Source: Alphaproteobacteria bacterium UBA6544 (GTDB lineage: Bacteria; Pseudomonadota; Alphaproteobacteria; UBA8366). From it: a stretch of DNA of 33,954 nt. This document shows positions 56-33,706 of this stretch, one piece after another. Numbering within the stretch: position 1 is the first letter of the stretch; each line of letters starts with the position of its first letter. A program made the position numbers and the translations under genes. The notes beneath the pieces were generated by a model that did not search any database, had not been told where the DNA came from, and worked only from the letters and a program-made list of their open reading frames with translations. Location: NCBI GenBank assembly GCA_002434595.1, contig DJKK01000320.1, forward strand, positions 1-33,954. The letters run 5' to 3'.

Positions 56-571
56 TTAGCTGGTACCGCCCTGAATTACGCTGACGCCACGACGATTTTG
101 TTGCCACGCGGACTCATTTGAGCCGAGCACAGCCGGGCGCTCCTTACCGTAGCTGATGGTATCGATCCGGTTGGCGGAAATTCCTCGGCTCACCAAATAT
201 TCCTTAACCGCATTTGCTCGGCGTTCGCCAAGCGCAAGATTGTATTCGCGCGTCCCGCGTTCGTCGCAATGTCCTTCAATGACGATCGTGACGTTCTGAT
301 ATCTTTTTAACCACGCCGCCTGATCGTTCAATGTCGACGCATCGCTAGAGCGAATTTCAGACTTATCAAAGTCGAAATAGATGCGATCGCCAACTGTTAC
401 AAATTCCTCCGCAGACCCCGGCGCCGGTGCGGAGACAGTCGACCCCGAGCTAACTGCCGCCGAAGAGGATTTCTGACCGCCGCCGGCAGTTTTGCCATCA
501 TCGGTCGACTCGGTCGCACAGGCCGCAACGAGCAGTAATGCGGCGGCGATGCTCAAAATCTTCATTTGCAT
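56..571 (-). CDS. pal: Peptidoglycan-associated lipoprotein Pal (OmpA-like C-terminal domain)
   Basis: Internal start MQMKILSIAAALLLVAAC gives a lipoprotein signal with lipobox LVAAC; ATG confirmed at 569-571. C-terminus VTIVIEGHCDERGTREYNLALGERRANAVKEYL is a canonical OmpA/Pal PG-binding motif. Lies directly downstream of tolB. The track ORF start at 682 is an upstream extension. Confidence 0.9.
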   Translation of the reverse strand: MQMKILSIAAALLLVAACATESTDDGKTAGGGQKSSSAAVSSGSTVSAPAPGSAEEFVTVGDRIYFDFDKSEIRSSDASTLNDQAAWLKRYQNVTIVIEGHCDERGTREYNLALGERRANAVKEYLVSRGISANRIDTISYGKERPAVLGSNESAWQQNRRGVSVIQGGTS

Positions 572-719
572 TAGATCACCTTTTCCCGTCAATTTCTCGG
601 AGTTTGTGGACGCACCCCTAGCGACTCGCCGATAATATGCATGCTGCATTATCAAACACAACCACTCATCACTAAAATTCACAATGTTGCAAAGCCGTTA
701 CGCAAAATTTTCGTGAGGC

Positions 720-2066
720 TTACTGCAACAGGGATGACCAAGCTGGATCGGAGGCATCGCCAGAGGTTACGACTTCGCGGAGGTTATATCCCGTCAGGTC
801 GACGGAGAATAGCCGGGTCCTGCCACCGCGACCTTTCGCGTCACTTCGCTCCTGTCGGAAAAACATGAGGACTCGGCCGTTCGGCGACCATGTTGGTGCC
901 TCGTCAAGGAAGCTCTTTGTCAGCAGGCGTTCACCGCTCCCGTCGGGTCTGATAACACCGATGTAGAACTCTCCCCGCATTTGTTTGGTAAAGGCAATCA
1001 GATCTCCACGCGGCGACCATACTGGCGTGGCATATCGACCGCGCCCGAAGCTAATTCGCCTGACATTGCTCCCGTCGGTGCCCATCACGTAGAGTTGGGG
1101 TGAACCGCCGCGGTCCGAATTGAACACCACGAAACGAGAGTCGGGCGATGCGCTGGGCGAAGTATCGATTGCGGGATGGGTCGTAAGTCTCTTAGATTTG
1201 CGCGTCCGTAAATCCATCGACCAGATATCCGAATTGCCGCGCTCCGCAAAGGCCATAACCACGGACTGGCCATCCGGCGTAAACCGCGGCGCAAACGTCA
1301 TTCCCTTGAAATTACCGAGCAGTTCCTCGCGGCCGGACTCGATGTTGAAAAGATACACGCGTGGCGTGTTGTTGAAATAAGAAAGATATGTGATCTCCTG
1401 CGCCGTCGGAGAGAACCGTGGCGTCAGCACTAGAGCGTCGCCGTTCGTCAGGTATCGAATATTCGCGCCGTCCTGATCCATAATGGCAAGGCGTTTGACG
1501 CGCCGACGCAACGGGCCACTCTCCGCGACATATACGATCCGCGTATCGAAATAACCACTCTCTCCAGTGATCCTTCGGTAAATTGCATCGGAAATTATGT
1601 GTGCAACGCGACGCCAGTTACCCGGCTCTGTAAAATAGGCAAGGCCCGTCATCTGCGCCTCTGCAAAGACATCCCAAAGTCGGAATTCTACACGCAAGCT
1701 TCCGTCCGTCTGCAATTTGACGCTCCCGTTCACGAGAGCTTGCGCATTGATCACGCGCCAATCGGAGTACCGCGGTTGCACACGCAGGTCCGCCGGTTTC
1801 TGCAGGAACGCTCCCTTGTCGATCGGCTTGAATAGGCCCGAGCGTTCGAGATTGCCGGAAATGACTGTCGCAATATCGATACCGGTTTCTCTGCTTTGGC
1901 GATTCGAACCAAAGAATTCAGTTATCGCAATCGGTAAGGGTTCGAGATGGCCCCGCAAGATATCGATGCGAACTTCCGCGCTGCTTTTCTCGATCGGTAG
2001 CAATAGCGCAAGTGCCAAGACCGACACCATGCCAATCAATGCATGCCTGAGCCGACTTACTCTCAT
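720..2066 (-). CDS. tolB: Tol-Pal system beta-propeller protein TolB
   Basis: Start [23 protein letters not shown] is a signal peptide. Repeated propeller motifs are present ([58 protein letters not shown]). The ATG at 2064-2066 overlaps the tolA stop as ATGA. Confidence 0.92.
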
Positions 2067-2944
2067 CGTCCCACCATTTCGCTTGGATTGAATCGCAAGA
2101 CCATGTCCTTCCATACGTCGTATTTCTGCAGCGGCAGCGTAAATTTATTGCATCGTGGGTTGCGTACCGCGCGAAGGGCGCTTTCCGCAACCGCTTTATA
2201 TGACGGATTTGTCTCCATTCGAAAACTGTCGACGATTCGAGATTCACGCAGTGTCCCATCCGGGTTTAATTTAATACGTATCTGAACCGCCATCTCTTCA
2301 ACGTTCTTGGCACCTATGGCTGCCGGCACCAGCCAGCACCGTTCGATCTGTCGACGGATTGCATCGATCTCGCTGATTGACAGGTCCTCTCCGAGCGGCG
2401 CTCGTTGTGCCCGTCCTGGTTGGCTTCGCGACTGGCGCTTCATCAGCGCCGCCATTTTCTCATCGAAGCTCTTCTTTTTCTCCTTTGATTTTTCCGGTTT
2501 TGCTGGCGGCGTTTCTTTCAGCTTCTGAACTGTCTTCAACATCATCGACGCAAAATCGGGTTTGGGCCGGGGCTTCGGTCGAGGCGCGACGCGCTTCGAC
2601 GGCGGCTTTGGCTGCTTTTTCGCTTTTGGCTCCAGCTTTGGTTCGAGTTTTTTTTCCACCGGCTTGGGCAGTGACTCCGGCGCGGGTTCGGATGGCAACG
2701 AGGCAACCTGCTTCGGCGGTTCAGGAGGTTTCAGCGGTGGGGGTGGCGGTGCCTTAACCTTTTCGGGCGGTGGCGCCTGCTTCGAAATCGGTTCCGGATC
2801 TGGTGTCTCCGTCACGGCAATGAGCTCGACGTCGATCACCTGATGATCAATGACGATACTCTTACTCGTACTCGGAAGTCCATAAATCGCGAACACGAAC
2901 ACCGCGATATGAAACCCGAAGGAGAGCACCAATGAGACGCGCAT
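2063..2944 (-). CDS. tolA: Tol-Pal system protein TolA (N-terminal anchor, Pro/Lys-rich spacer, TonB_C-like C-terminus)
   Basis: The N-terminal [25 protein letters not shown] carries the SxxxH motif typical of TolA/TonB anchors. A long [21 protein letters not shown] / [12 protein letters not shown] spacer follows. Sits between tolR and tolB. Confidence 0.82.
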
Positions 2945-2956
2945 CCAGCCCCTCCA

Positions 2957-3421
2957 TTACCTCTGAGATTTGGCGCCGGGCGGCTTCGGCAATTCGGCCA
3001 TCAACGACACCCGCTTGAAGCCTGCGGCACTGATAGCGCCCATAACCTCCATAACGCGTCCATAGTGAATAGCCTTGTCACCACGCACAAAAATCTTGAT
3101 GCCCGGGTTGGCACCAGTGACCGCCACGAGCCGCGGCACCAAATTCTCAAGTGGCGTTTCATATTCCTGCAGAAATATCGACCCGCTAGCGTTCACGGTC
3201 ACCACGAGTGGTTCGTCAGTATCGGACAGCGACGCCGCCCGCGTCTTCGGGAGATCGACGGGAACGCCAACTGTCAGCAAAGGCGCCGTAATCATGAAGA
3301 CGATCAACAGAACCAGCATCACATCGACAAACGGTGTCACATTGATCTCGGACATGGCCCGATACCGACCCCTCTGTGCCCGACCCGTGGAACGCCCGTT
3401 GCCATTGGTCTGAAAGGCCAT
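2957..3421 (-). CDS. tolR: Tol-Pal system protein TolR (ExbD/TolR family)
   Basis: EINVTPFVDVMLVLLIVFMITAP is a single TM with the conserved Asp. Size 154 aa. Immediately downstream of tolQ. Confidence 0.88.
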   Translation of the reverse strand: MAFQTNGNGRSTGRAQRGRYRAMSEINVTPFVDVMLVLLIVFMITAPLLTVGVPVDLPKTRAASLSDTDEPLVVTVNASGSIFLQEYETPLENLVPRLVAVTGANPGIKIFVRGDKAIHYGRVMEVMGAISAAGFKRVSLMAELPKPPGAKSQR

Positions 3422-3424
3422 CGC

Positions 3425-4153
3425 TCAGCTGGTCTCCTCGATTTGGCGCGAGAGGATCGCGATGAACTCACCGGCAAACGTTTCCATTCGGCCCGCATAA
3501 CGTCCAAGGTCGTTCGATAGTTTGTTGTAGGCGATGACCGCAGGGATCGCCGCAATCAGGCCGAGCGCGGTCGCGAAAAGGGCCTCCGCGATGCCCGGCG
3601 CCACCACAGCAAGGTTGGTCTGCTTTGTCACCGCGATCGACTGGAAACTATTCATGATACCCCAGACGGTACCGAAAAGGCCGACGAACGGCGCCGTCGA
3701 CCCCACCGACGCGAGGAACATCATGTAGCGTTCAAGCCTTTCGATTTCACGGGCCACCGTTACCTGCATTATCCGGTCCAGGCGGTCCTTCAGGCCCGAT
3801 TTTCCTGACTCGCTGTATACCAGTCCTTTGGCAGACGACCGTCGCCATTCTCGCATGCCCGCGGCAAATACCGCGGTCATCGGATCACTTGGTTGCTGGC
3901 CGACCTGCTCGAAGAGCTCCTCCAACGAGCCGCCAGACCAGAACTCATCCTCAAACTTGTTGGCGCGGCGCTGCAGCCGCTTGAGACGGAATGTCTTGTC
4001 CAAAATGATCGCCCAGCACCAGACCGAGGCCAGCAAGAGAATCAGCATCACGGCCTTTACCACCCAATCGGCGCTGAGGAATAGACTCCATAGCGTCAAC
4101 TGCGATTGCCCTAAGGCCTGTCCAACCGCGCCTTCTACAACTGCCTGTTCCAT
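3425..4153 (-). CDS. tolQ: Tol-Pal system protein TolQ (MotA/TolQ/ExbB proton channel)
   Basis: Three TM segments. Signature APFVGLFGTVWGIMNSF ... APGIAEALFATALGLIAAIPAVIAYN. Confidence 0.92.
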   Translation of the reverse strand: MEQAVVEGAVGQALGQSQLTLWSLFLSADWVVKAVMLILLLASVWCWAIILDKTFRLKRLQRRANKFEDEFWSGGSLEELFEQVGQQPSDPMTAVFAAGMREWRRSSAKGLVYSESGKSGLKDRLDRIMQVTVAREIERLERYMMFLASVGSTAPFVGLFGTVWGIMNSFQSIAVTKQTNLAVVAPGIAEALFATALGLIAAIPAVIAYNKLSNDLGRYAGRMETFAGEFIAILSRQIEETS

Positions 4154-9099: not shown

Positions 9100-9280
9100 A
9101 AAAGGTGGGAATGTGGGCGGTGCCGCATCGGCCGTCGGTCTTGTTAATCCTCATGGGCCTGGATTACCAGGTGGGCGCCGTGTGCCGAGACCACGATCCC
9201 GACAGGGACAGCTCCCGAGAGGATTGTATAGCCCCCGGGATAACGAAGCCGTCGCACCGCGCAGCGAACCGCCCGTCCTT
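9100..9280 (-). ncRNA. ssrS: Putative 6S RNA (ssrS)
   Basis: A 192-nt gap with no credible ORF lies between zapA and the cyclo-ligase, all on one strand. This is the widely conserved zapA-ssrS-ygfA arrangement. The ends can pair (GGGCGGT at 9115-9121 with ACCGCCC at 9268-9274, also GCGGTGC with GCACCGC) around a GC-rich imperfect helix. The ends are not mapped. Confidence 0.55.
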
Positions 9281-22382: not shown

Positions 22383-22952
22383 ATGAAAATCAACGGTAAT
22401 GCGGTTCGACCGGGCAATATCATCGAACATCAGGGCCGCCTCTGGCGCGCCACGAAGATACAGCACACCCAACCAGGCAAGGGTGGTGCCTACCTGCAAG
22501 TCGAACTCCGGGATATTCGCGACGGCACCAAACTCAACGAACGGTTCCGTTCTTCGGAAACTATCGAACGGGTGAGACTGGACCAAAAGAATTTCCAATT
22601 CCTGTTTACCGATGGCGACGACTACACCTTCATGGACAACGAGACCTACGAACAGGTCACCGTCCACGAAGACTTCATCGGCGAAGACACGGTGCGTTTC
22701 CTTCAGGAGGGCATGGCGGTCGAGATGGAGTTCCACGAGGATTCACCGATCGGTGTTTCGCTGCCTGAGAAAGTGACGCTTGAGGTAACCGAGGCGGACG
22801 CCGTAGTGAAAGGCCAAACTGCTTCGTCATCCTACAAACCAGCCACCTTGGAAAACGGTGTAAAAACACTGGTTCCGCCACATATCGAGTCTGGCACCCG
22901 TGTCGTCATCAGTACCGCCGACGCCTCCTATGTCGAGCGCGCTAAAGATTAA
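22383..22952 (+). CDS. efp: Translation elongation factor P
   Basis: Full-length EF-P of 189 aa with the loop [17 protein letters not shown] (Lys-type tip). Confidence 0.96.
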
Positions 22953-23895: not shown

Positions 23896-25035
23896 ATGAA
23901 AAGAACGATTTCGCGCCGCAAACACGGGAAACTGACATCCGTCGGAATCCCCTTCTTCCTCTCTGTATATCTGCTCGGAAGTTTTTCCGCCGCCGCACAG
24001 ACACACGTTTACACGGATCAATACGGCAATCCGACGGTTAGCGTGGATTTGCGAGTTCTCGATCGGCTCGGCCCTCAACAGAGTTTACCAGATATCTATC
24101 GGAAGACAGCGCCGATACCTACCAGGCCGGTCATGGCGCGTCGCCCGGCGCCTGCTGCGGGAGGCGCACGCGGCGGACTCTTAGCGCCACCACCGCGAAC
24201 AATGCCTCGCTCGAAATTGAATTTGCCAGCTGGCAATATCTCCAGCGGGACCGCGACACGACAGATCGCTCCGCCGGCACCGGTAAGCGTCGCTACGCCG
24301 CCCCCACCGATTAAGCGCTCGCCCTCACCGGTCGAAAGGCCCGTAACACCGTCGCGGCCAGCACCGAAAGTCGCGGTTCGTCGCCCCGCTGCGCCCACAC
24401 CAATTGCGCCCCCGAAACCAACAGCACGCCTGGCACCTCCGTCCGTGCCGACGGCACCCGCACCTCCAACCGTTAAACCGAAATCCATTGTAACTGCCCC
24501 GGCGTCTATTCTGCCCCCCGCACCAATCCGTGCGCCTGCACCAATTCGACCGCCATTGCTGGCACCGCCGAAGACTGCACTGGCAAAACCGGTGGTGCCC
24601 GACCCGAAACCCGCCACAGCCCCGCCGCCGATAAAGGCGCCGCCCGCCGTACAGTTAAGCGTTACCGCCGCACCGGCATCACACCCTGCCGGTCCAGTCG
24701 GGAGCATCTCTGTCAGTCCGGACGGCAACCGCTACAGCATCCCCTTCTCCGCTGGGACACAGGATTTACCATCGAACGCATCGGACGCCCTCAACAGGCT
24801 CGCGGCACGCATGAAGAAGGATGACGATATCCGCATCCAGTTGATGGGCTTCGCATCCAACGGCGGCGGGTCCGCAAGTCAGGCACGCCGGAGTTCTCTC
24901 TTCCGAGCGCTCGCGGTAAGAACCTACTTAATGAAGGAAGGAATCCGGAGCACGCGTATGGATGTGCGCGCTCTCGGCCAGACCAACGTCGAAGGCGTAC
25001 CACCGGATCGCGTCGACGTCCTCGTCCAAAAATAG
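23896..25035 (+). CDS. Secreted or anchored Pro-rich protein with C-terminal OmpA-like domain (first gene of the stator-like module)
   Basis: The ATG at 23896 gives MKRTISRRKHGKLTSVGIPFFLSVYLLGSFSAAAQ, a signal peptide or anchor. About 200 aa are Pro/Ala-rich, including an imperfect 18-bp tandem at 24520-24555 encoding APIRAPAPIRPP. The C-terminus IPFSAGTQDL...IRIQLMGFAS...ARRSSLFRALAVRTYLMKEGI...RVDVLV has an OmpA_C-like pattern. The track start at 23713 overlaps suhB. Confidence 0.7.
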   Translation: MKRTISRRKHGKLTSVGIPFFLSVYLLGSFSAAAQTHVYTDQYGNPTVSVDLRVLDRLGPQQSLPDIYRKTAPIPTRPVMARRPAPAAGGARGGLLAPPPRTMPRSKLNLPAGNISSGTATRQIAPPAPVSVATPPPPIKRSPSPVERPVTPSRPAPKVAVRRPAAPTPIAPPKPTARLAPPSVPTAPAPPTVKPKSIVTAPASILPPAPIRAPAPIRPPLLAPPKTALAKPVVPDPKPATAPPPIKAPPAVQLSVTAAPASHPAGPVGSISVSPDGNRYSIPFSAGTQDLPSNASDALNRLAARMKKDDDIRIQLMGFASNGGGSASQARRSSLFRALAVRTYLMKEGIRSTRMDVRALGQTNVEGVPPDRVDVLVQK

Positions 25036-25073
25036 ACGCTCAACGCCCACACGACAGGGATTCCACGGACCAG

Positions 25074-26213
25074 ATGACCAAGCCTCAAAGCTATCTCGTC
25101 CGTATGCTGATTTTCCTGGCCGCGGTTTGCACCGCCGGGTTCTTCCTCCTCGGCCCGTTGCGCGACGCCTTTCTCGCCAATACGGTACTCAACAGCGTGA
25201 TCCTAGGTGTGTTGCTGATCGGCATACTTCATATGTTTCGGCTCGTCCACATGCTACGACCCGAGGTGGCCTGGATCTACTCCTTCCGTCGCGACGGTGT
25301 ATCGGTTTCCAGCGGAAGCGGTCCAAAGCTGCTGGCCCCCATGGCGGCGATGCTCGGTGAGCGAAGTGGCGACCGGTTCAGTCTCTCCACTATGGCGATG
25401 CGTTCTCTTCTCGACGGAATTGCAACACGTCTAGATGAAGGGCGGGAAACAGCGCGGTATTTTATTGGCTTGCTCGTATTTCTCGGATTGCTCGGTACTT
25501 TTTGGGGCCTGCTTGAAACAGTTCGGTCCATCGGCGACGTCATCTCCGGACTTTCGGTTGAAGGCGACGCGATGCAAGAGGTCTTTCAGCGCCTCAAAGG
25601 CGGATTGCAGGCCCCACTTGCAGGCATGGGCACAGCATTTAGCTCATCACTTTTCGGTCTCACCGGATCTCTCATACTTGGCTTTCTCGCGCTGCAGGCC
25701 GGACAAGCCCAGAACCGTTTCTACAATGACCTTGAAGAGTGGCTTTCCGGACAGACCCGCCTTGGAGGCGGCGGACCCGTCGGAGACGGCGATCAGGCAG
25801 TTCCCGCGTATATACAGGCGCTGCTCGAGCAGACCGCGGACAGTCTCGAAAATCTTCAGCGAACGCTAGCGCGCGGTGAGGACAGCCGCATTGACGCCAA
25901 TCGACGCATCGTTCAATTGACGGAAAACCTCGGTTCCCTCAGCGAGTCAATGCGGGCACAGCAAGATTTGCTTCTCAAGTTGGCCCAAGGCCAATCCGAC
26001 CTCAGGCCGCTTTTATCCGCAATGGCGGAGGCGCAAACCACGTCGCACAATAGTCAAACGGCAGCAGCCCTCAGAAACATAGATGCGCACCTGGCACGCC
26101 TGCTTTCCGATCAGACGACGGGACGTGAGGAAGCAGTACAGGAAGTTCGTAACGAAATTCGCTTGCTCGCGCGTACCATTGCCGCCCTGGCCCAGGGCGA
26201 AGACCCGCAATAG
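25074..26213 (+). CDS. MotA/TolQ/ExbB-family proton-channel subunit with long C-terminal coiled-coil tail
   Basis: Two N-terminal TMs, then GLLVFLGLLGTFWGLLETV and LAGMGTAFSSSLFGLTGSLILGFLALQ. These parallel the in-window TolQ segments GLFGTVWGIMNSF and GIAEALFATALGLIAAIP. Residues ~212-379 are heptad-like helical sequence. Starts 38 nt after the upstream gene. Confidence 0.8.
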   Translation: MTKPQSYLVRMLIFLAAVCTAGFFLLGPLRDAFLANTVLNSVILGVLLIGILHMFRLVHMLRPEVAWIYSFRRDGVSVSSGSGPKLLAPMAAMLGERSGDRFSLSTMAMRSLLDGIATRLDEGRETARYFIGLLVFLGLLGTFWGLLETVRSIGDVISGLSVEGDAMQEVFQRLKGGLQAPLAGMGTAFSSSLFGLTGSLILGFLALQAGQAQNRFYNDLEEWLSGQTRLGGGGPVGDGDQAVPAYIQALLEQTADSLENLQRTLARGEDSRIDANRRIVQLTENLGSLSESMRAQQDLLLKLAQGQSDLRPLLSAMAEAQTTSHNSQTAAALRNIDAHLARLLSDQTTGREEAVQEVRNEIRLLARTIAALAQGEDPQ

Positions 26214-26225
26214 GCGGATTAAGCC

Positions 26226-27410
26226 ATGGCACTGGCACGGCGCAGCTCGACAAACGGATTTGACATCTGGCCCGGCTTCGTTGATGCGCTCGCGACCCTG
26301 CTCATGGTCATTATCTTTCTGCTGATGATCTTCGTGGTTGCTCAGTTCTTCTTGAACGATGCTATTTCTGGTCGCGATCAGGCACTTGAACGACTTAACC
26401 TTCAAGTAGAAGAATTGGCAGACTTACTCGCACTCGAGCGCCTCGCGAGTGAGAACCTTCGCAACAACGTGACGCAACTTTCTTCGGAACTTCAGAGCAC
26501 GCTTGTCGCCCGTGACGGGCTGGAGGATGATCTCTCCAAATTGAGCAACAAACATACCGCGCTCAGCGAAAGCCTGAGAGACGCGCAAGGAAAACTATCG
26601 AAATCGGACAAGGAGAGGGCGCGCCTTAGCCTGCGCCTAGACAAGCTACGTCAGGATGTCGCCGCCATGACCGCTCTGCGTGACGAAATCGCGGAGGATT
26701 TTGCAGCAGCGCGAACAAAGCACAAGGCAGATTCAGAGAAGGCAGCCATCCAGTTGACCGAAGAACAGAAAATTTCCGAAGCTGCCAAAGCTCAGGTTTC
26801 TTTGCTCAACAGGCAAATGGTGGAATTTCGAATACAAGTAGCCCGTCTCAACACCGCGCTTGAAGCCTCGGAGGCGGCTTCAAAGGCGCAGAAGGCGGAG
26901 ATCGTAAATCTCGGCAAACGCCTAAACGCCGCATTGGCAAGCAAGGTGCAGGAACTCGAGCGCTACCGTTCGGAGTTCTTCGGGCGGTTGCGGCAAGTTT
27001 TGGGCAACCGACGCGATATTCGCGTCGTCGGCGATCGGTTCGTCTTTCAATCCGAGGTCCTGTTCGGTTCGGGTTCCGCGGAGATGGGAAAAAATGGTAA
27101 AGGGCAGCTTACGCAACTTGCACGGACCTTGAAGTCCATTTCGGCAAAGATTCCAAAGGACCTTAATTGGGTACTTCGCGTGGACGGGCACACGGATCGC
27201 GTTCCGATCAAGACCGCAGCGTTTCCGTCGAATTGGGAACTCTCGACGGCGCGAGCCATTTCAGTGGTTAAATTCCTGGTTTCTCAAGGAATTCCCGCAC
27301 GGAATCTAGCTGCGGCGGGTTTCGGAGAATTTCGTCCCCTCGACGACCGAACTGACGAGATCGCCTACCGGCGCAATCGCCGGATCGAACTCAAGCTGGA
27401 TCAACGCTGA
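26226..27410 (+). CDS. MotB/TolR-like subunit: TM with conserved Asp, ~200-aa coiled coil, OmpA-like PG-binding domain
   Basis: IWPGFVDALATLLMVIIFLLMIF parallels the in-window TolR segment TPFVDVMLVLLIVFM. Residues ~50-250 are continuous coiled-coil-like sequence. The C-terminus LRVDGHTDRVP...NWELSTARAISVVKFLVSQGI...NRRIELKL is a canonical OmpA/MotB domain. Starts 12 nt after the A-subunit stop. Confidence 0.82.
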   Translation: MALARRSSTNGFDIWPGFVDALATLLMVIIFLLMIFVVAQFFLNDAISGRDQALERLNLQVEELADLLALERLASENLRNNVTQLSSELQSTLVARDGLEDDLSKLSNKHTALSESLRDAQGKLSKSDKERARLSLRLDKLRQDVAAMTALRDEIAEDFAAARTKHKADSEKAAIQLTEEQKISEAAKAQVSLLNRQMVEFRIQVARLNTALEASEAASKAQKAEIVNLGKRLNAALASKVQELERYRSEFFGRLRQVLGNRRDIRVVGDRFVFQSEVLFGSGSAEMGKNGKGQLTQLARTLKSISAKIPKDLNWVLRVDGHTDRVPIKTAAFPSNWELSTARAISVVKFLVSQGIPARNLAAAGFGEFRPLDDRTDEIAYRRNRRIELKLDQR

Positions 27411-33109: not shown

Positions 33110-33706
33110 ATGTCGAAACCGCTCATGCCGCAGGCGACGGCAGTATGGTTGGTCGAGAATACAGGGCTTTCATTCCTGCAGATTAGTACTTTTTGCGGCT
33201 TGCATGAGCTCGAAGTTCAGGCAATAGCTGACGAAGAAGTCGCTGTCGGCATGCAAGGCATCGACCCCGTGATCAATGGGCAATTGACCCGCGATGAGAT
33301 CGCGCGCTGCGAAGGCGACCCTGCCAGCCGCCTGGAAATGGCGAAGTCGGATATTCCTCAGCCGGTCGCCCGGCCGAAAGGCCCGCGATACACACCTCTG
33401 TCGCGCCGTCAGGAGAAACCGGATGCAATCGCTTGGATATTACGGCATCATCCAGAGTTATCGGATGCACAGATTGGCCGTCTGATTGGAACTACCAAGC
33501 CGACCATCAACGCAGTCCGAGACCGCACACACCGTAATATGCCAAACCTGCGGCCACGCAGCCCGGTCGAGCTCGGTCTGTGCAGCCATGACGATCTCGC
33601 TCAGGCAATCGAGAAAGGTATCAAAGCCGGCCGCCAGCCCCGGCTAATCGATCCTCTGCCGGAGGAACCAACCGAAGCGATGACTGATCCGTTCGGAGAC
33701 ACCTAG
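33110..33706 (+). CDS. DUF1013 family protein (TrcR-type cell-cycle transcriptional regulator)
   Basis: MSKPLMPQATAVWLVENTGLSFLQISTFCGLHELEVQAIADEEVAVGMQGIDPV and LIGTTKPTINAVRDRTHRN match the alphaproteobacterial DUF1013 pattern. Confidence 0.82.
   Translation: MSKPLMPQATAVWLVENTGLSFLQISTFCGLHELEVQAIADEEVAVGMQGIDPVINGQLTRDEIARCEGDPASRLEMAKSDIPQPVARPKGPRYTPLSRRQEKPDAIAWILRHHPELSDAQIGRLIGTTKPTINAVRDRTHRNMPNLRPRSPVELGLCSHDDLAQAIEKGIKAGRQPRLIDPLPEEPTEAMTDPFGDT

What the first reader, a model, noticed from the sequence alone, without database searches (positions are those of the whole stretch)
23896..27410. Compact three-gene stator-like / Tol-like module of unknown function, distinct from the canonical Tol-Pal genes in the same window
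Three same-strand genes separated by 38 and 12 nt. (1) A Pro-rich spacer protein ending in an OmpA-like domain. (2) A MotA/TolQ/ExbB-type channel subunit. (3) A MotB/TolR-type subunit with the hallmark TM aspartate (GFVDALATLL, Asp codon 26283-26285) and an OmpA-like PG-binding domain. The parts list mirrors Tol-Pal/TonB logic: channel A subunit, Asp-bearing B subunit, Pro-rich periplasm-spanning element, OmpA-like anchor. The domain fusions differ, and both motor subunits carry long coiled coils. The real tolQRA-tolB-pal is at 56-4153, so this is an additional ion-driven machine. No flagellar, TonB-receptor, gliding or nuclease/helicase genes flank it (neighbours are suhB, efp and an ABC exporter). 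I cannot tell from sequence alone whether the family is characterised.
Basis: partly seen in the sequence, partly recalled or inferred. Interest (0 to 1): 0.75.

Follow-up and report, generated by a model that had tools for sequence, protein, structure and literature searches.

The report
Orphan ZorAB-like ion motor, Alphaproteobacteria
Three adjacent genes encode an uncharacterised ion-driven membrane motor, anchored to the cell wall, that is inherited as a core chromosomal module across Alphaproteobacteria, resembles the anti-phage ZorAB motor more than flagellar or Tol/Ton motors, and has no known job.

Summary
Three same-strand genes, separated by 38 and 12 nt, encode p1, p2 and p3.

- **p1** is a secreted Pro-rich protein with a divergent OmpA-like end.
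- **p2** is a MotA/ExbB/ZorA-type channel subunit with a cytoplasmic helical tail.
- **p3** is a MotB-type subunit with an invariant membrane Asp20, a helical stalk of about 215 residues and a canonical peptidoglycan-binding domain.

The p2-p3 pair is strongly co-conserved. It is adjacent in about 80 alphaproteobacterial genomes that share efp-suhB synteny, in Sinorhizobium, and in distant relatives with different neighbours. p1 is a frequent but dispensable third partner.

The module is not a flagellar stator, not a Tol or Ton set and not a Zorya defence system, because defining features of each were tested and failed. Its membrane core matches ZorA models best, and its B subunit belongs to the unnamed NCBIfam family PRK09039.

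I found no functional study. The probable S. meliloti orthologue SMc03993 turned up in only one paper of the searched library, as a ChvI-bound DNA fragment; its neighbour SMc03992 turned up in none.

Best reading: a housekeeping 5:2 ion-driven motor anchored to peptidoglycan, with a cytoplasmic output. Its cellular role is unknown, possibly sensing of envelope state. I rate it a new variant of a known kind, of moderate to high interest.

The parts
23896..25035 (+). p1 gene (379 aa): secreted accessory protein with an N-terminal motif, a Pro-rich spacer and a divergent OmpA-like domain
   Evidence: ORF. Pfam OmpA 2.4e-10. Family alignment A3. Present between suhB and p2 in 55 of 64 scorable loci, and as a short form in the distant locus L089.
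23896..24000 (+). p1 signal peptide (aa 1-35), ending in AAAQ before the mature N-terminus
   Evidence: A basic n-region and a hydrophobic core can be read directly from the sequence. Ala34 is nearly invariant and Gln35 invariant across 25 homologues. Cleavage is inferred, not tested.
24001..24120 (+). p1 conserved N-terminal motif (VDLxVLDxLGP...LPxL), a candidate docking segment
   Evidence: These are conserved columns in A3 (V48, V50, D51, L55, G59). The docking role is inferred.
24121..24690 (+). p1 Pro/Ala-rich low-complexity spacer of variable length
   Evidence: Composition is 29% Pro and 19% Ala. Length and sequence vary among homologues.
24703..25032 (+). p1 divergent OmpA-like domain (GYA/GFA in place of GHTD; conserved SQARRxSLFRALAVR...DRVD)
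   Evidence: Pfam OmpA over residues 284-364. Invariant R331, R332, R337, R372 and D374. The canonical peptidoglycan-binding Asp of GHTD is absent, as read from the sequence.
25074..26213 (+). p2 gene (379 aa): A (channel/rotor) subunit of a 5:2-type motor
25452..25694 (+). p2 TM3-loop-TM4 core (aa 127-207) carrying FLGLLGTFWGLLxT and PLxGMGTAFSSSLFGL
   Evidence: Invariant L137, G138, G141, T142, G145, L146, T149, P181, M185, F189, G195 and L196 in 48 diverse members. This region aligns to ZorA models and to the window's TolQ.
25803..26192 (+). p2 cytoplasmic helical tail (aa 244-373), predicted as two helices, 244-322 and 327-373
   Evidence: AF2 secondary structure. Strong 3.5-residue hydrophobic periodicity: 0 of 2000 shuffles reach the observed value. 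The start (PAYxxALLEQTAE) and end (ExRxEIRLLxRTIAA) are conserved and the middle varies. Cytoplasmic location is inferred from the positive-inside rule.
26226..27410 (+). p3 gene (394 aa): B (stator/anchor) subunit, a member of NCBIfam PRK09039
   Evidence: NF006543 scores 462.9 bits against a cutoff of 305. Also.
26268..26354 (+). p3 transmembrane helix (aa 15-43) with WPGFVD
   Evidence: P16 is present in 76 of 77 orthologues, G17 in 74 of 77 and D20 in 77 of 77.
26283..26285 (+). Asp20 codon (GAT), the presumed ion-binding residue
   Evidence: Sequence. Invariant in 77 of 77 orthologues.
26355..27002 (+). p3 periplasmic helical stalk (aa 44-259): helix to residue 170, break at 171-178, helix 179-259
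   Evidence: AF2 model. Heptad periodicity. Indels are confined to about residues 100-172, and protein lengths step by 7 (390, 397, 404, 411).
27003..27407 (+). p3 MotB-type peptidoglycan-binding (OmpA-like) domain with canonical GHTD, NWELSxARA and NRRIE motifs
   Evidence: Pfam OmpA 1.2e-14. PDB MotS, MotB and PomB sequence hits. Foldseek hit to MotS, TM-score 0.81, rmsd 2.1-2.8. The motifs are invariant.

Best explanation
The locus encodes a non-flagellar, vertically inherited member of the 5:2 ion-driven motor superfamily.

Shown:
- p2 has the ZorA/MotA/ExbB-type membrane core, followed by a heptad-periodic helical tail of about 135-170 residues.
- p3 has one N-terminal membrane helix with an invariant Asp, then a helical stalk of about 215 residues, then a canonical MotB-type peptidoglycan-binding domain.
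- The two genes stay adjacent across Alphaproteobacteria, even where their neighbours change.

Inferred from solved MotAB and ZorAB structures:
- Five p2 subunits surround a p3 dimer.
- Proton (or Na+) passage via Asp20 and the Thr/Ser-lined p2 helices turns the p2 ring around the wall-anchored p3 dimer.
- The only sizeable extramembrane parts of p2 are cytoplasmic: the TM2-TM3 loop and the tail. The mechanical or signalling output is therefore delivered inside the cell by the tail, to a partner not encoded in the locus.

p1 is a secreted periplasmic accessory. A conserved N-terminal motif could dock on the motor, a flexible Pro-rich spacer follows, and the protein ends in a divergent OmpA-like domain. 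Many lineages have it and several lack it, so it modulates anchoring or reach rather than forming the core.

The cellular role is unknown. I favour a housekeeping function that senses or transduces envelope state, as an effector-less counterpart of ZorAB. I do not favour motility, uptake or defence.
For: - **A subunit.** All 48 diverse family members hit the PADLOC ZorA1 and ZorA3 models (best 1e-15), and 38 of 48 hit Pfam MotA_ExbB. The top 50 Foldseek hits of the p2 model are all ZorA, TolQ, ExbB or MotA chains, with type I ZorA best. hhalign to the window's own TolQ gives 83% probability over the GLLGTFWG helix. The Gly/Thr/Pro core residues are invariant.
- **B subunit.** D20 is present in 77 of 77 orthologues. 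The C-terminal domain is MotS/MotB/PomB-like by sequence and by fold. The protein reaches PRK09039 above its cutoff.
- **Helices.** The helical stalk and tail are supported by AF2 and by heptad periodicity, and p3 lengths step by heptads.
- **Co-conservation.** The order efp-suhB-p1-p2-p3 recurs in about 80 genomes. S. meliloti has suhB-A-B without p1. The A-B pair stays adjacent in different neighbourhoods (L087 and L088). A short p1-like gene plus A plus B is found at 38% identity.
- **Housekeeping character.** The 33954-base window holds only core metabolic, translation and envelope genes. Among 72,556 plasmid records only 5 match, all of them chromosome-sized replicons of 3.5-4.6 Mb.
- **Family size.** The family comprises 563 clusters at 50% identity with E below 1e-30.
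Against: - There is no experimental datum for any member.
- Stoichiometry, ion flow and rotation are inferred by homology only.
- The p2 monomer model has low confidence (pLDDT 62), and the Foldseek E-values are weak (2e-3 or worse).
- The window's p2 falls below the Pfam MotA_ExbB cutoff.
- No cytoplasmic partner for the tail was identified.
- A long, torsionally soft stalk is a poor torque reaction arm.
- In the most divergent relatives (Holosporales-like; L084-L086, L090) the A gene has no adjacent B gene.
- The envelope-sensing role is conjecture.
Confidence: 0.68

Rival explanations
1. This is a Tol/Ton-like envelope force transducer. The p2-p3 motor pulls on or positions p1, whose Pro-rich spacer spans the periplasm and whose OmpA-like end grips the wall or outer-membrane side. 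The output is therefore periplasmic.
For: p1 has the layout of a force transducer minus the anchor: a conserved N-terminal strand-like motif, a Pro-rich spacer and a globular C-terminal domain. This compares with the TolA/TonB 'motor box' layout described in PMC12204202. p1 is co-oriented 38 nt upstream of p2 and is present in 55 of 64 scorable loci and in the distant locus L089. Loci without p1 have the shortest p3 stalks.
Against: p1 ends its hydrophobic segment with a near-invariant Ala and an invariant Gln (AAAQ in the window), typical of a signal-peptidase site, and lacks the S-x3-H anchor seen in the window's real TolA. It has no TolA/TonB C-terminal domain. p1 is absent from Sinorhizobium, from the Stellaceae-type loci, and from L087 and L088, where the A-B pair persists. 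p3 itself already carries a canonical wall anchor. The periplasmic loops of p2 are short.
Confidence: 0.15
2. This is a spare or specialised flagellar stator (a MotAB/PomAB paralogue), as the automated annotations 'flagellar motor protein MotA' and 'chemotaxis protein MotB' suggest.
For: Sources name close homologues MotA and MotB. The p3 C-terminal domain is most similar to MotS, MotB and PomB, with partial hits to the MotD and MotS models.
Against: No flagellar MotA model is hit at E of 0.01 or better. The MotB-type models score far below their cutoffs (107.6 against 283). The TM2-TM3 cytoplasmic loop is only about 70 residues and is poorly structured, which contrasts with the torque-generating interface that defines flagellar stators (PMC12505986). 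No flagellar genes occur in the window or in the syntenic loci. A 215-residue stalk is unlike the MotB linker.
Confidence: 0.05
3. This is a Zorya-type anti-phage system, or a degenerate remnant of one.
For: The best HMM matches of p2 and good matches of p3 are to ZorA and ZorB models. The A subunit has a C-terminal helical tail, as ZorA does (ZorAB description in bioRxiv 10.1101/2023.12.18.572097).
Against: No ZorC, D, E, F or G gene, or any nuclease or helicase gene, occurs in the window or in related loci. The NCBIfam ZorA score is 18.8 against a cutoff of 500. The tail is about 135-170 residues, against about 500 in E. coli ZorA. The core-genome synteny is conserved from Rhodospirillales-type genomes to Sinorhizobium, unlike sporadic defence islands. 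The module is absent from true plasmids.
Confidence: 0.04
4. This is a non-rotary structural element. p3 would be a membrane-to-wall tether or ruler whose coiled-coil length sets periplasmic spacing, and p2 a gated ion channel or chaperone for it, with no mechanical output.
For: p3 stalk length is quantised in heptads and varies between lineages. The stalk is long enough (about 23-31 nm if extended; inferred) to span much of the periplasm. No output partner is known.
Against: The invariant Asp20 and the invariant Gly/Thr/Pro channel-lining residues are the hallmarks of energy-coupled 5:2 motors and would not be needed for a passive tether. The conserved p2 tail also implies a cytoplasmic function.
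Confidence: 0.08

Closest known systems
ZorAB, the motor of the Zorya anti-phage system (ZorA5B2; PDB 8qyd and 8vvn)
   Same: The A subunit has a MotA/ExbB-like membrane core followed by a C-terminal cytoplasmic helical tail. The B subunit has a membrane Asp and a dimerising MotB-type peptidoglycan-binding domain. ZorA models are the best sequence-model match for p2, and a type I ZorA chain is the top fold match, ahead of TolQ, ExbB and MotA chains. ZorB is a strong match for p3, though MotD and MotS models and MotS structures score higher on its C-terminal domain.
   Different: There are no ZorC, D, E, F or G effectors. The tail is about 135-170 residues and is predicted as two helices, not a bundle of about 500 residues. 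The B subunit carries a periplasmic stalk of about 215 residues that ZorB lacks. The module is core-genome and vertically inherited, not a mobile defence island. The NCBIfam ZorA cutoffs are not met.
Flagellar stators MotAB, PomAB and MotPS
   Same: The two-gene A-B layout, the Asp in the B membrane helix, and the fold and motifs of the MotB-type peptidoglycan-binding domain.
   Different: There is no torque-generating cytoplasmic domain and no hit to flagellar MotA models. There is no flagellar gene context. The module also has an extra stalk, an extra tail and the p1 partner.
TolQRA-Pal and ExbBD-TonB
   Same: It belongs to the same superfamily of A subunit (hhalign 83% to the window's TolQ over one helix). 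It also has a Pro-rich periplasmic protein and an OmpA-like wall binder in its parts list.
   Different: The B subunit has an OmpA-like domain, not a TolR/ExbD domain. p1 is secreted and not SHLS-anchored, and it has no TolA/TonB domain III. The real Tol-Pal operon is present separately in the window.
NCBIfam PRK09039 (NF006542-NF006546), 'peptidoglycan-binding protein'
   Same: p3 is a full-length member (462.9 bits against a cutoff of 305), and so is the S. meliloti orthologue (692 against 362).
   Different: This is a naming model only. It carries no function and does not cover the partner A subunit, for which no NCBIfam model is reached.
Non-flagellar 'generic ion transporter' MotAB relatives (PMC12505986) and SiiAB
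   Same: These are also non-flagellar A-B pairs with extra N- or C-terminal extensions on the A subunit.
   Different: Those B subunits are described as lacking the extended plug/linker and OmpA-homologous domain, whereas p3 has a canonical OmpA-like domain and an unusually long linker. This family is not described in that paper.

Membership tests
5:2 ion-driven motor superfamily (MotAB/ExbBD/TolQR/ZorAB) | A subunit with the MotA_ExbB-type membrane core (GxxGT helix plus the following Pro/Thr/Ser helix) | tested here: met
   38 of 48 family members hit PF01618 and 48 of 48 hit ZorA models. The Foldseek top 50 are all A subunits. hhalign to TolQ gives 83%. The window protein alone scores below the Pfam cutoff (18.5 against 22.9).
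5:2 ion-driven motor superfamily (MotAB/ExbBD/TolQR/ZorAB) | B subunit with a single N-terminal membrane helix carrying a conserved Asp | tested here: met
   D20 is present in 77 of 77 orthologues, within the conserved WPGFVD motif.
5:2 ion-driven motor superfamily (MotAB/ExbBD/TolQR/ZorAB) | A and B genes adjacent and co-inherited | tested here: met
   The exceptions are Holosporales-like contigs, where the A gene stands alone.
5:2 ion-driven motor superfamily (MotAB/ExbBD/TolQR/ZorAB) | A5B2 stoichiometry and ion-driven rotation | not testable with these tools
   Only single-chain prediction was available. This needs a multimer prediction, cryo-EM or biophysics.
Flagellar stator (MotAB/PomAB) | A subunit matches flagellar MotA models and has the large TM2-TM3 torque-generating domain | tested here: not met
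   No NCBIfam MotA model is hit at E of 0.01 or better. The loop is about 70 residues with pLDDT below 50 over residues 71-104.
Flagellar stator (MotAB/PomAB) | B subunit with a MotB-type peptidoglycan-binding domain | tested here: met
   MotS and MotB structures align with TM-score about 0.8. The whole-protein MotB, MotD and MotS cutoffs are not reached.
Flagellar stator (MotAB/PomAB) | Encoded with, or dependent on, flagellar genes | tested here: not met
   No flagellar genes occur in the window or in syntenic loci. Functional dependence was not tested.
Tol-Pal / Ton (TolQRA, ExbBD-TonB) | A subunit reaches the TolQ or ExbB equivalog models | tested here: not met
   There is no TolQ or ExbB hit for p2, whereas the window's real TolQ scores 291.9 bits.
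Tol-Pal / Ton (TolQRA, ExbBD-TonB) | B subunit with a TolR/ExbD periplasmic domain | tested here: not met
   p3 has an OmpA/MotB domain and no ExbD or TolR hit.
Tol-Pal / Ton (TolQRA, ExbBD-TonB) | Transducer with an SHLS-type N-terminal membrane anchor and a TolA/TonB C-terminal domain | tested here: not met
   p1 has a signal peptide ending in a near-invariant Ala and an invariant Gln, has no His in the hydrophobic segment, and has a C-terminal OmpA-like domain. This contrasts with the TolA ORF in the same window.
Zorya (ZorAB plus effectors) | ZorA and ZorB family membership | tested here: inconclusive
   PADLOC ZorA1 hits at 1.2e-11 and ZorB3 at 9.6e-23, but both are partial. NCBIfam ZorA_4 scores 18.8 against a cutoff of 500.
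Zorya (ZorAB plus effectors) | Linked effector genes (ZorC/D, ZorE, ZorF/G) | tested here: not met
   p1 has no PADLOC hit at all, and p2 and p3 match no Zorya effector model. The neighbours are housekeeping genes.
Zorya (ZorAB plus effectors) | Very long ZorA tail (hundreds of residues) | tested here: not met
   The tail spans residues 208/244-379, against E. coli ZorA residues 223-729.
NCBIfam PRK09039 peptidoglycan-binding protein | Full-length match above the curated cutoff | tested here: met
   NF006543 scores 462.9 bits against 305, covering residues 1-394.

The most novel reading that the evidence does not exclude
The module is an ancient, effector-less, housekeeping relative of the Zorya motor. 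In this reading it is a wall-anchored rotary or torsional sensor. Its periplasmic stalk, tuned in heptad steps and assisted by p1, reads the geometry or tension between inner membrane and wall. Its cytoplasmic tail relays that state to a core cellular process such as growth-zone or division control, or envelope stress signalling. That would make it a new physiological class of 5:2 motor, and possibly the stock from which anti-phage ZorAB was recruited.
Probability: 0.2. Interest if true: 0.85.

Novelty: new variant of a known kind. Interest (0 to 1): 0.58.

Why it matters
5:2 ion-driven motors are known to power only a handful of processes: flagella, gliding, Ton uptake, Tol-Pal, SiiAB-dependent secretion and Zorya defence. 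This family adds a large, vertically inherited module with an unassigned job: at least 563 clusters at 50% identity. It is present in genetically tractable species such as Sinorhizobium meliloti.

It combines a ZorA-like tail with an unusually long B-subunit stalk and an optional secreted partner. It therefore offers a direct way to ask what a Zorya-like motor does when no defence effectors are attached. It may also reveal an unrecognised envelope function in Alphaproteobacteria. In addition, it corrects the misleading automated names 'flagellar motor protein MotA' and 'chemotaxis protein MotB'.

Tried and rejected
- **PDB sequence searches for p2.** A single-sequence search found nothing, and the family profile found only spurious coiled-coil matches caused by the tail.
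- **Rfam.** I looked for the alphaproteobacterial suhB RNA motif between suhB and the trio. It is absent, and only a 6S RNA elsewhere was found.
- **Promoter and terminator scan of the trio.** The counts did not exceed chance.
- **Literature.** Ten searches found no characterisation. They covered PRK09039, 5:2 motor names, non-flagellar MotAB, ZorAB homologues, Tn-seq, SMc03993/SMc03992 and guessed R. leguminosarum tags. The RL403x guess was wrong, because that region is the che2 cluster. Targeted look-ups in the Brucella envelope review, the ChvGI papers, the Rgs/Tol-Pal paper and the alpha-signature-protein paper were also negative.
- **Essentiality in S. meliloti.** SMc03993 and SMc03992 do not appear in the stored parts of the Tn-seq supplements. 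This is uninformative, because several of the files were cut when stored.
- **Taxonomy.** The listing of cluster members gave almost no taxonomy for distant relatives.
- **Rejected readings.** Fortuitous adjacency, flagellar stator, Tol/Ton membership and Zorya defence were all rejected; see the rival explanations and the membership tests.

Full report
**Observation**

All are on the + strand, with intergenic gaps of 38 and 12 nt. The codon at 26283-26285 is GAT, which is Asp20 in WPGFVDALATLL. G+C content is unremarkable for the window.

The canonical Tol-Pal genes lie on the minus strand at 56-4153. TolQ scores 291.9 bits, and TolR, TolB and Pal all score above their equivalog cutoffs. The ORF in the TolA position has no model hit, but it shows the TolA layout: an S-x3-H membrane anchor, a Pro/Lys-rich middle and a globular end.

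The immediate neighbours are thiE, efp and suhB upstream, and a convergent MsbA-related ABC exporter (TIGR02204) downstream. The rest of the window is core metabolism, with Hsp20 and TrcR. There are no flagellar, TonB-receptor, gliding, nuclease or helicase genes.

**The three proteins**

p3 is a clear MotB-type B subunit.
- It has a short N-terminus and one membrane helix.
- A long helical region follows.
- It ends in an OmpA-like domain with the canonical GHTD, NWELSxARA and NRRIE motifs.
- It is a full-length member of NCBIfam PRK09039.1-2, named only 'peptidoglycan-binding protein' (462.9 bits against a cutoff of 305).
- Its C-terminal roughly 155 residues match the MotS, MotB and PomB periplasmic domains by sequence and by fold (TM-score about 0.8, rmsd 2.1-2.8). 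ZorB chains also match.
- AF2 (pLDDT 76) predicts one helix over residues 15-170, a break at 171-178, a second helix over 179-259, and then the globular domain.
- In 77 orthologues Asp20 is invariant and the WPGFVD motif is nearly so.

p2 has four hydrophobic helices.
- The third and fourth carry FLGLLGTFWGLLxT and PLxGMGTAFSSSLFGL. Their Gly, Thr and Pro residues are invariant in 48 members that are 36-57% identical to the window protein.
- The window protein alone hits Pfam MotA_ExbB below the cutoff. Across the family, 38 of 48 members hit MotA_ExbB and 48 of 48 hit the PADLOC ZorA1 and ZorA3 models, with a best E-value of 1e-15.
- No NCBIfam TolQ, ExbB or MotA model is hit.
- The AF2 monomer has low confidence (pLDDT 62). 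Even so, its 50 best PDB matches are all A subunits of 5:2 motors. Type I ZorA comes first, followed by TolQ, ExbB and MotA.
- Profile comparison with the window's own TolQ finds homology only around the GLLGTFWG helix (83% probability over 42 columns).
- After the last membrane helix there is a helical tail, residues 244-322 and 327-373, with strong heptad periodicity. Its beginning and end are conserved and its middle is variable.
- By the positive-inside rule the N-terminus, the loop of about 70 residues between TM2 and TM3, and the tail are all cytoplasmic. This topology is an inference.

p1 has four parts.
- A signal peptide ends in a near-invariant Ala and an invariant Gln (AAAQ in the window).
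- A conserved N-terminal motif follows (VDLxVLDxLGP...LPxL).
- Next is a Pro/Ala-rich spacer of variable length (29% Pro).
- The C-terminal OmpA-like domain is divergent. It keeps the Arg of the peptidoglycan-binding site but replaces GHTD with GYA or GFA.
- It has no PADLOC hit and no TolA/TonB domain.

**Conservation**

A scan of one genome per species returned 533 confirmed relatives of p2. In the 80 best loci, which are 55-94% identical, the order efp-suhB-p1-p2-p3 recurs, often with the convergent ABC exporter. Nearly all of these are Rhodospirillales-type MAGs.

p1 lies between suhB and p2 in 55 of the 64 loci that could be scored. In six loci, comprising five Stellaceae-type or unclassified alphaproteobacterial MAGs and Sinorhizobium, the suhB-p2 gap is 400 nt or less, so p1 is truly absent.

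Sinorhizobium meliloti has thiE2, a Sel1 protein, suhB, a 'MotA/TolQ/ExbB family protein', a 'peptidoglycan-binding protein', the convergent ABC exporter and rpmE, in that order. Its two proteins are 54% and 45% identical to p2 and p3. Its B subunit scores 692 bits on PRK09039.1-3.

More distant A subunits (43-47% identity) sit in unrelated neighbourhoods, yet an OmpA protein of 388-407 residues still follows them immediately, and no p1 is present. One A subunit at 38% identity keeps a short p1-like gene plus A plus B. The A-B pair is therefore a functional unit rather than a product of synteny inertia, and p1 is an ancient but dispensable partner.

There are exceptions. In Holosporales-like contigs (36-37% identity) the A gene has no adjacent B gene.

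The family is large. There are 563 clusters at 50% identity with E below 1e-30, and more than 8000 clusters at 90% identity for both p2 and p3. Among 72,556 plasmid records only five match, and all five are chromosome-sized replicons.

**Stalk length**

p3 orthologues range from 328 to 489 residues. Their lengths cluster at 390, 397, 404 and 411, and 32 of 77 fall in a single mod-7 class. All sizeable indels fall within residues 100-172. This fits a coiled coil under register constraint.

Loci without p1 have the shortest p3 proteins (328-368 residues; Mann-Whitney p = 0.001). These loci are phylogenetically clustered, so this is only a lead. Whether the stalk is extended (about 23-31 nm) or folded back at residues 171-178 cannot be resolved here.

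**What it is not**

- Not a flagellar stator. There is no MotA model hit, no torque-generating cytoplasmic domain and no flagellar context. The source names 'flagellar motor protein MotA' and 'chemotaxis protein MotB' look like over-annotation.
- Not a Tol or Ton system. p2 hits no TolQ or ExbB model, p3 has no TolR/ExbD domain, and p1 is not an SHLS-anchored TolA/TonB.
- Not Zorya. There are no effector genes, the curated ZorA cutoff is not met, the tail is far shorter than the roughly 500-residue ZorA tail, and the core synteny is stable.

**Literature**

Ten full-text searches and several targeted look-ups found no study of this family.

By gene order the S. meliloti orthologues are probably SMc03993 and SMc03992, since suhB is SMc03994 and the Sel1 protein RgsF is SMc03995. 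This mapping is an inference.

The only mention I found is a ChvI-bound DNA fragment inside SMc03993 (PMC3687685). Recent surveys of 5:2 motors list MotAB, PomAB, LafTU, AglRQS, ZorAB, SiiAB, TolQR and ExbBD, plus a new class with a von Willebrand A (vWA) domain, but not this family (PMC12204202; PMC12505986). Publications outside the searched library cannot be excluded.

**Mechanism**

The shown facts are the domain architectures, the invariant Asp and channel residues, and the co-inheritance of A and B. The rest is inferred from solved MotAB and ZorAB complexes.
- Five p2 subunits would surround a p3 dimer.
- Ion passage through Asp20 would drive p2 around the wall-anchored p3.
- The output would be cytoplasmic, through the p2 tail, because p2 exposes little to the periplasm.
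- p1 probably modulates anchoring or reach in the periplasm.

I favour a housekeeping role in sensing or transducing envelope state. This last step is conjecture.

**Verdict**

The module is a new variant of a known kind of machine. It is widespread, misannotated and unstudied. Interest is moderate to high.

Noticed in passing
window 9116-9270 (-): A 6S/SsrS RNA gene (Rfam RF00013, 53.9 bits against a gathering score of 46.4). It is the only Rfam match in the window.
   Followed up: no
window 2063-2944 (-): The ORF in the TolA position of the tol-pal operon hits no Pfam or NCBIfam model. It nevertheless has an S8-x3-H12 membrane anchor, a Pro/Lys-rich middle and a globular C-terminus. It looks like a divergent alphaproteobacterial TolA that current models miss.
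   Followed up: partly
window 27391-27410: The 3' ends of p3 and the convergent MsbA-related ABC exporter (TIGR02204, 837 bits) overlap by 20 nt. This convergent pairing recurs in many related loci and in S. meliloti.
   Followed up: partly
window 24096-24728 (-): A 210-aa Gly-rich ORF lies antisense to the Pro-rich spacer of p1. It is a compositional shadow (CCN codons read as GGN on the other strand), not a gene.
   Followed up: no
L083 4430-5575 (S. meliloti), compared with window 22383-22952: In S. meliloti the essential Sel1/TPR polar-growth protein RgsF (SMc03995) sits between thiE2 and suhB, two genes upstream of the A-B pair. The window has efp in that position. A functional link to the motor is untested.
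   Followed up: partly
L084 6001-8674; L085/L086 4620-7949; L090 1394-2521: In Holosporales-like contigs the p2 homologue (36-37% identity) has no adjacent p3 or p1 gene. In L084 a soluble MCP-signal-like protein and a STAS protein follow it. In L085 an unknown secreted 409-aa protein and BamD flank it.
   Followed up: partly
loci L013, L022, L037, L075: These contigs carry the full alphaproteobacterial efp-suhB-trio synteny but belong to MAGs labelled Flavobacteriales, Gammaproteobacteria, Sulfotelmatobacter and Patescibacteria. They are probably mis-binned.
   Followed up: no
p3 orthologues in loci L001-L083: p3 lengths are quantised in heptad steps (390, 397, 404, 411). The loci that lack p1 have the shortest stalks (328-368 aa). 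This correlation is confounded by phylogeny.
   Followed up: partly
window 33110-33706 (+): A TrcR (PF06242/DUF1465) transcriptional cell-cycle regulator gene. A DUF1465 gene also lies near the pair in S. meliloti, so the conserved synteny extends beyond the trio.
   Followed up: no
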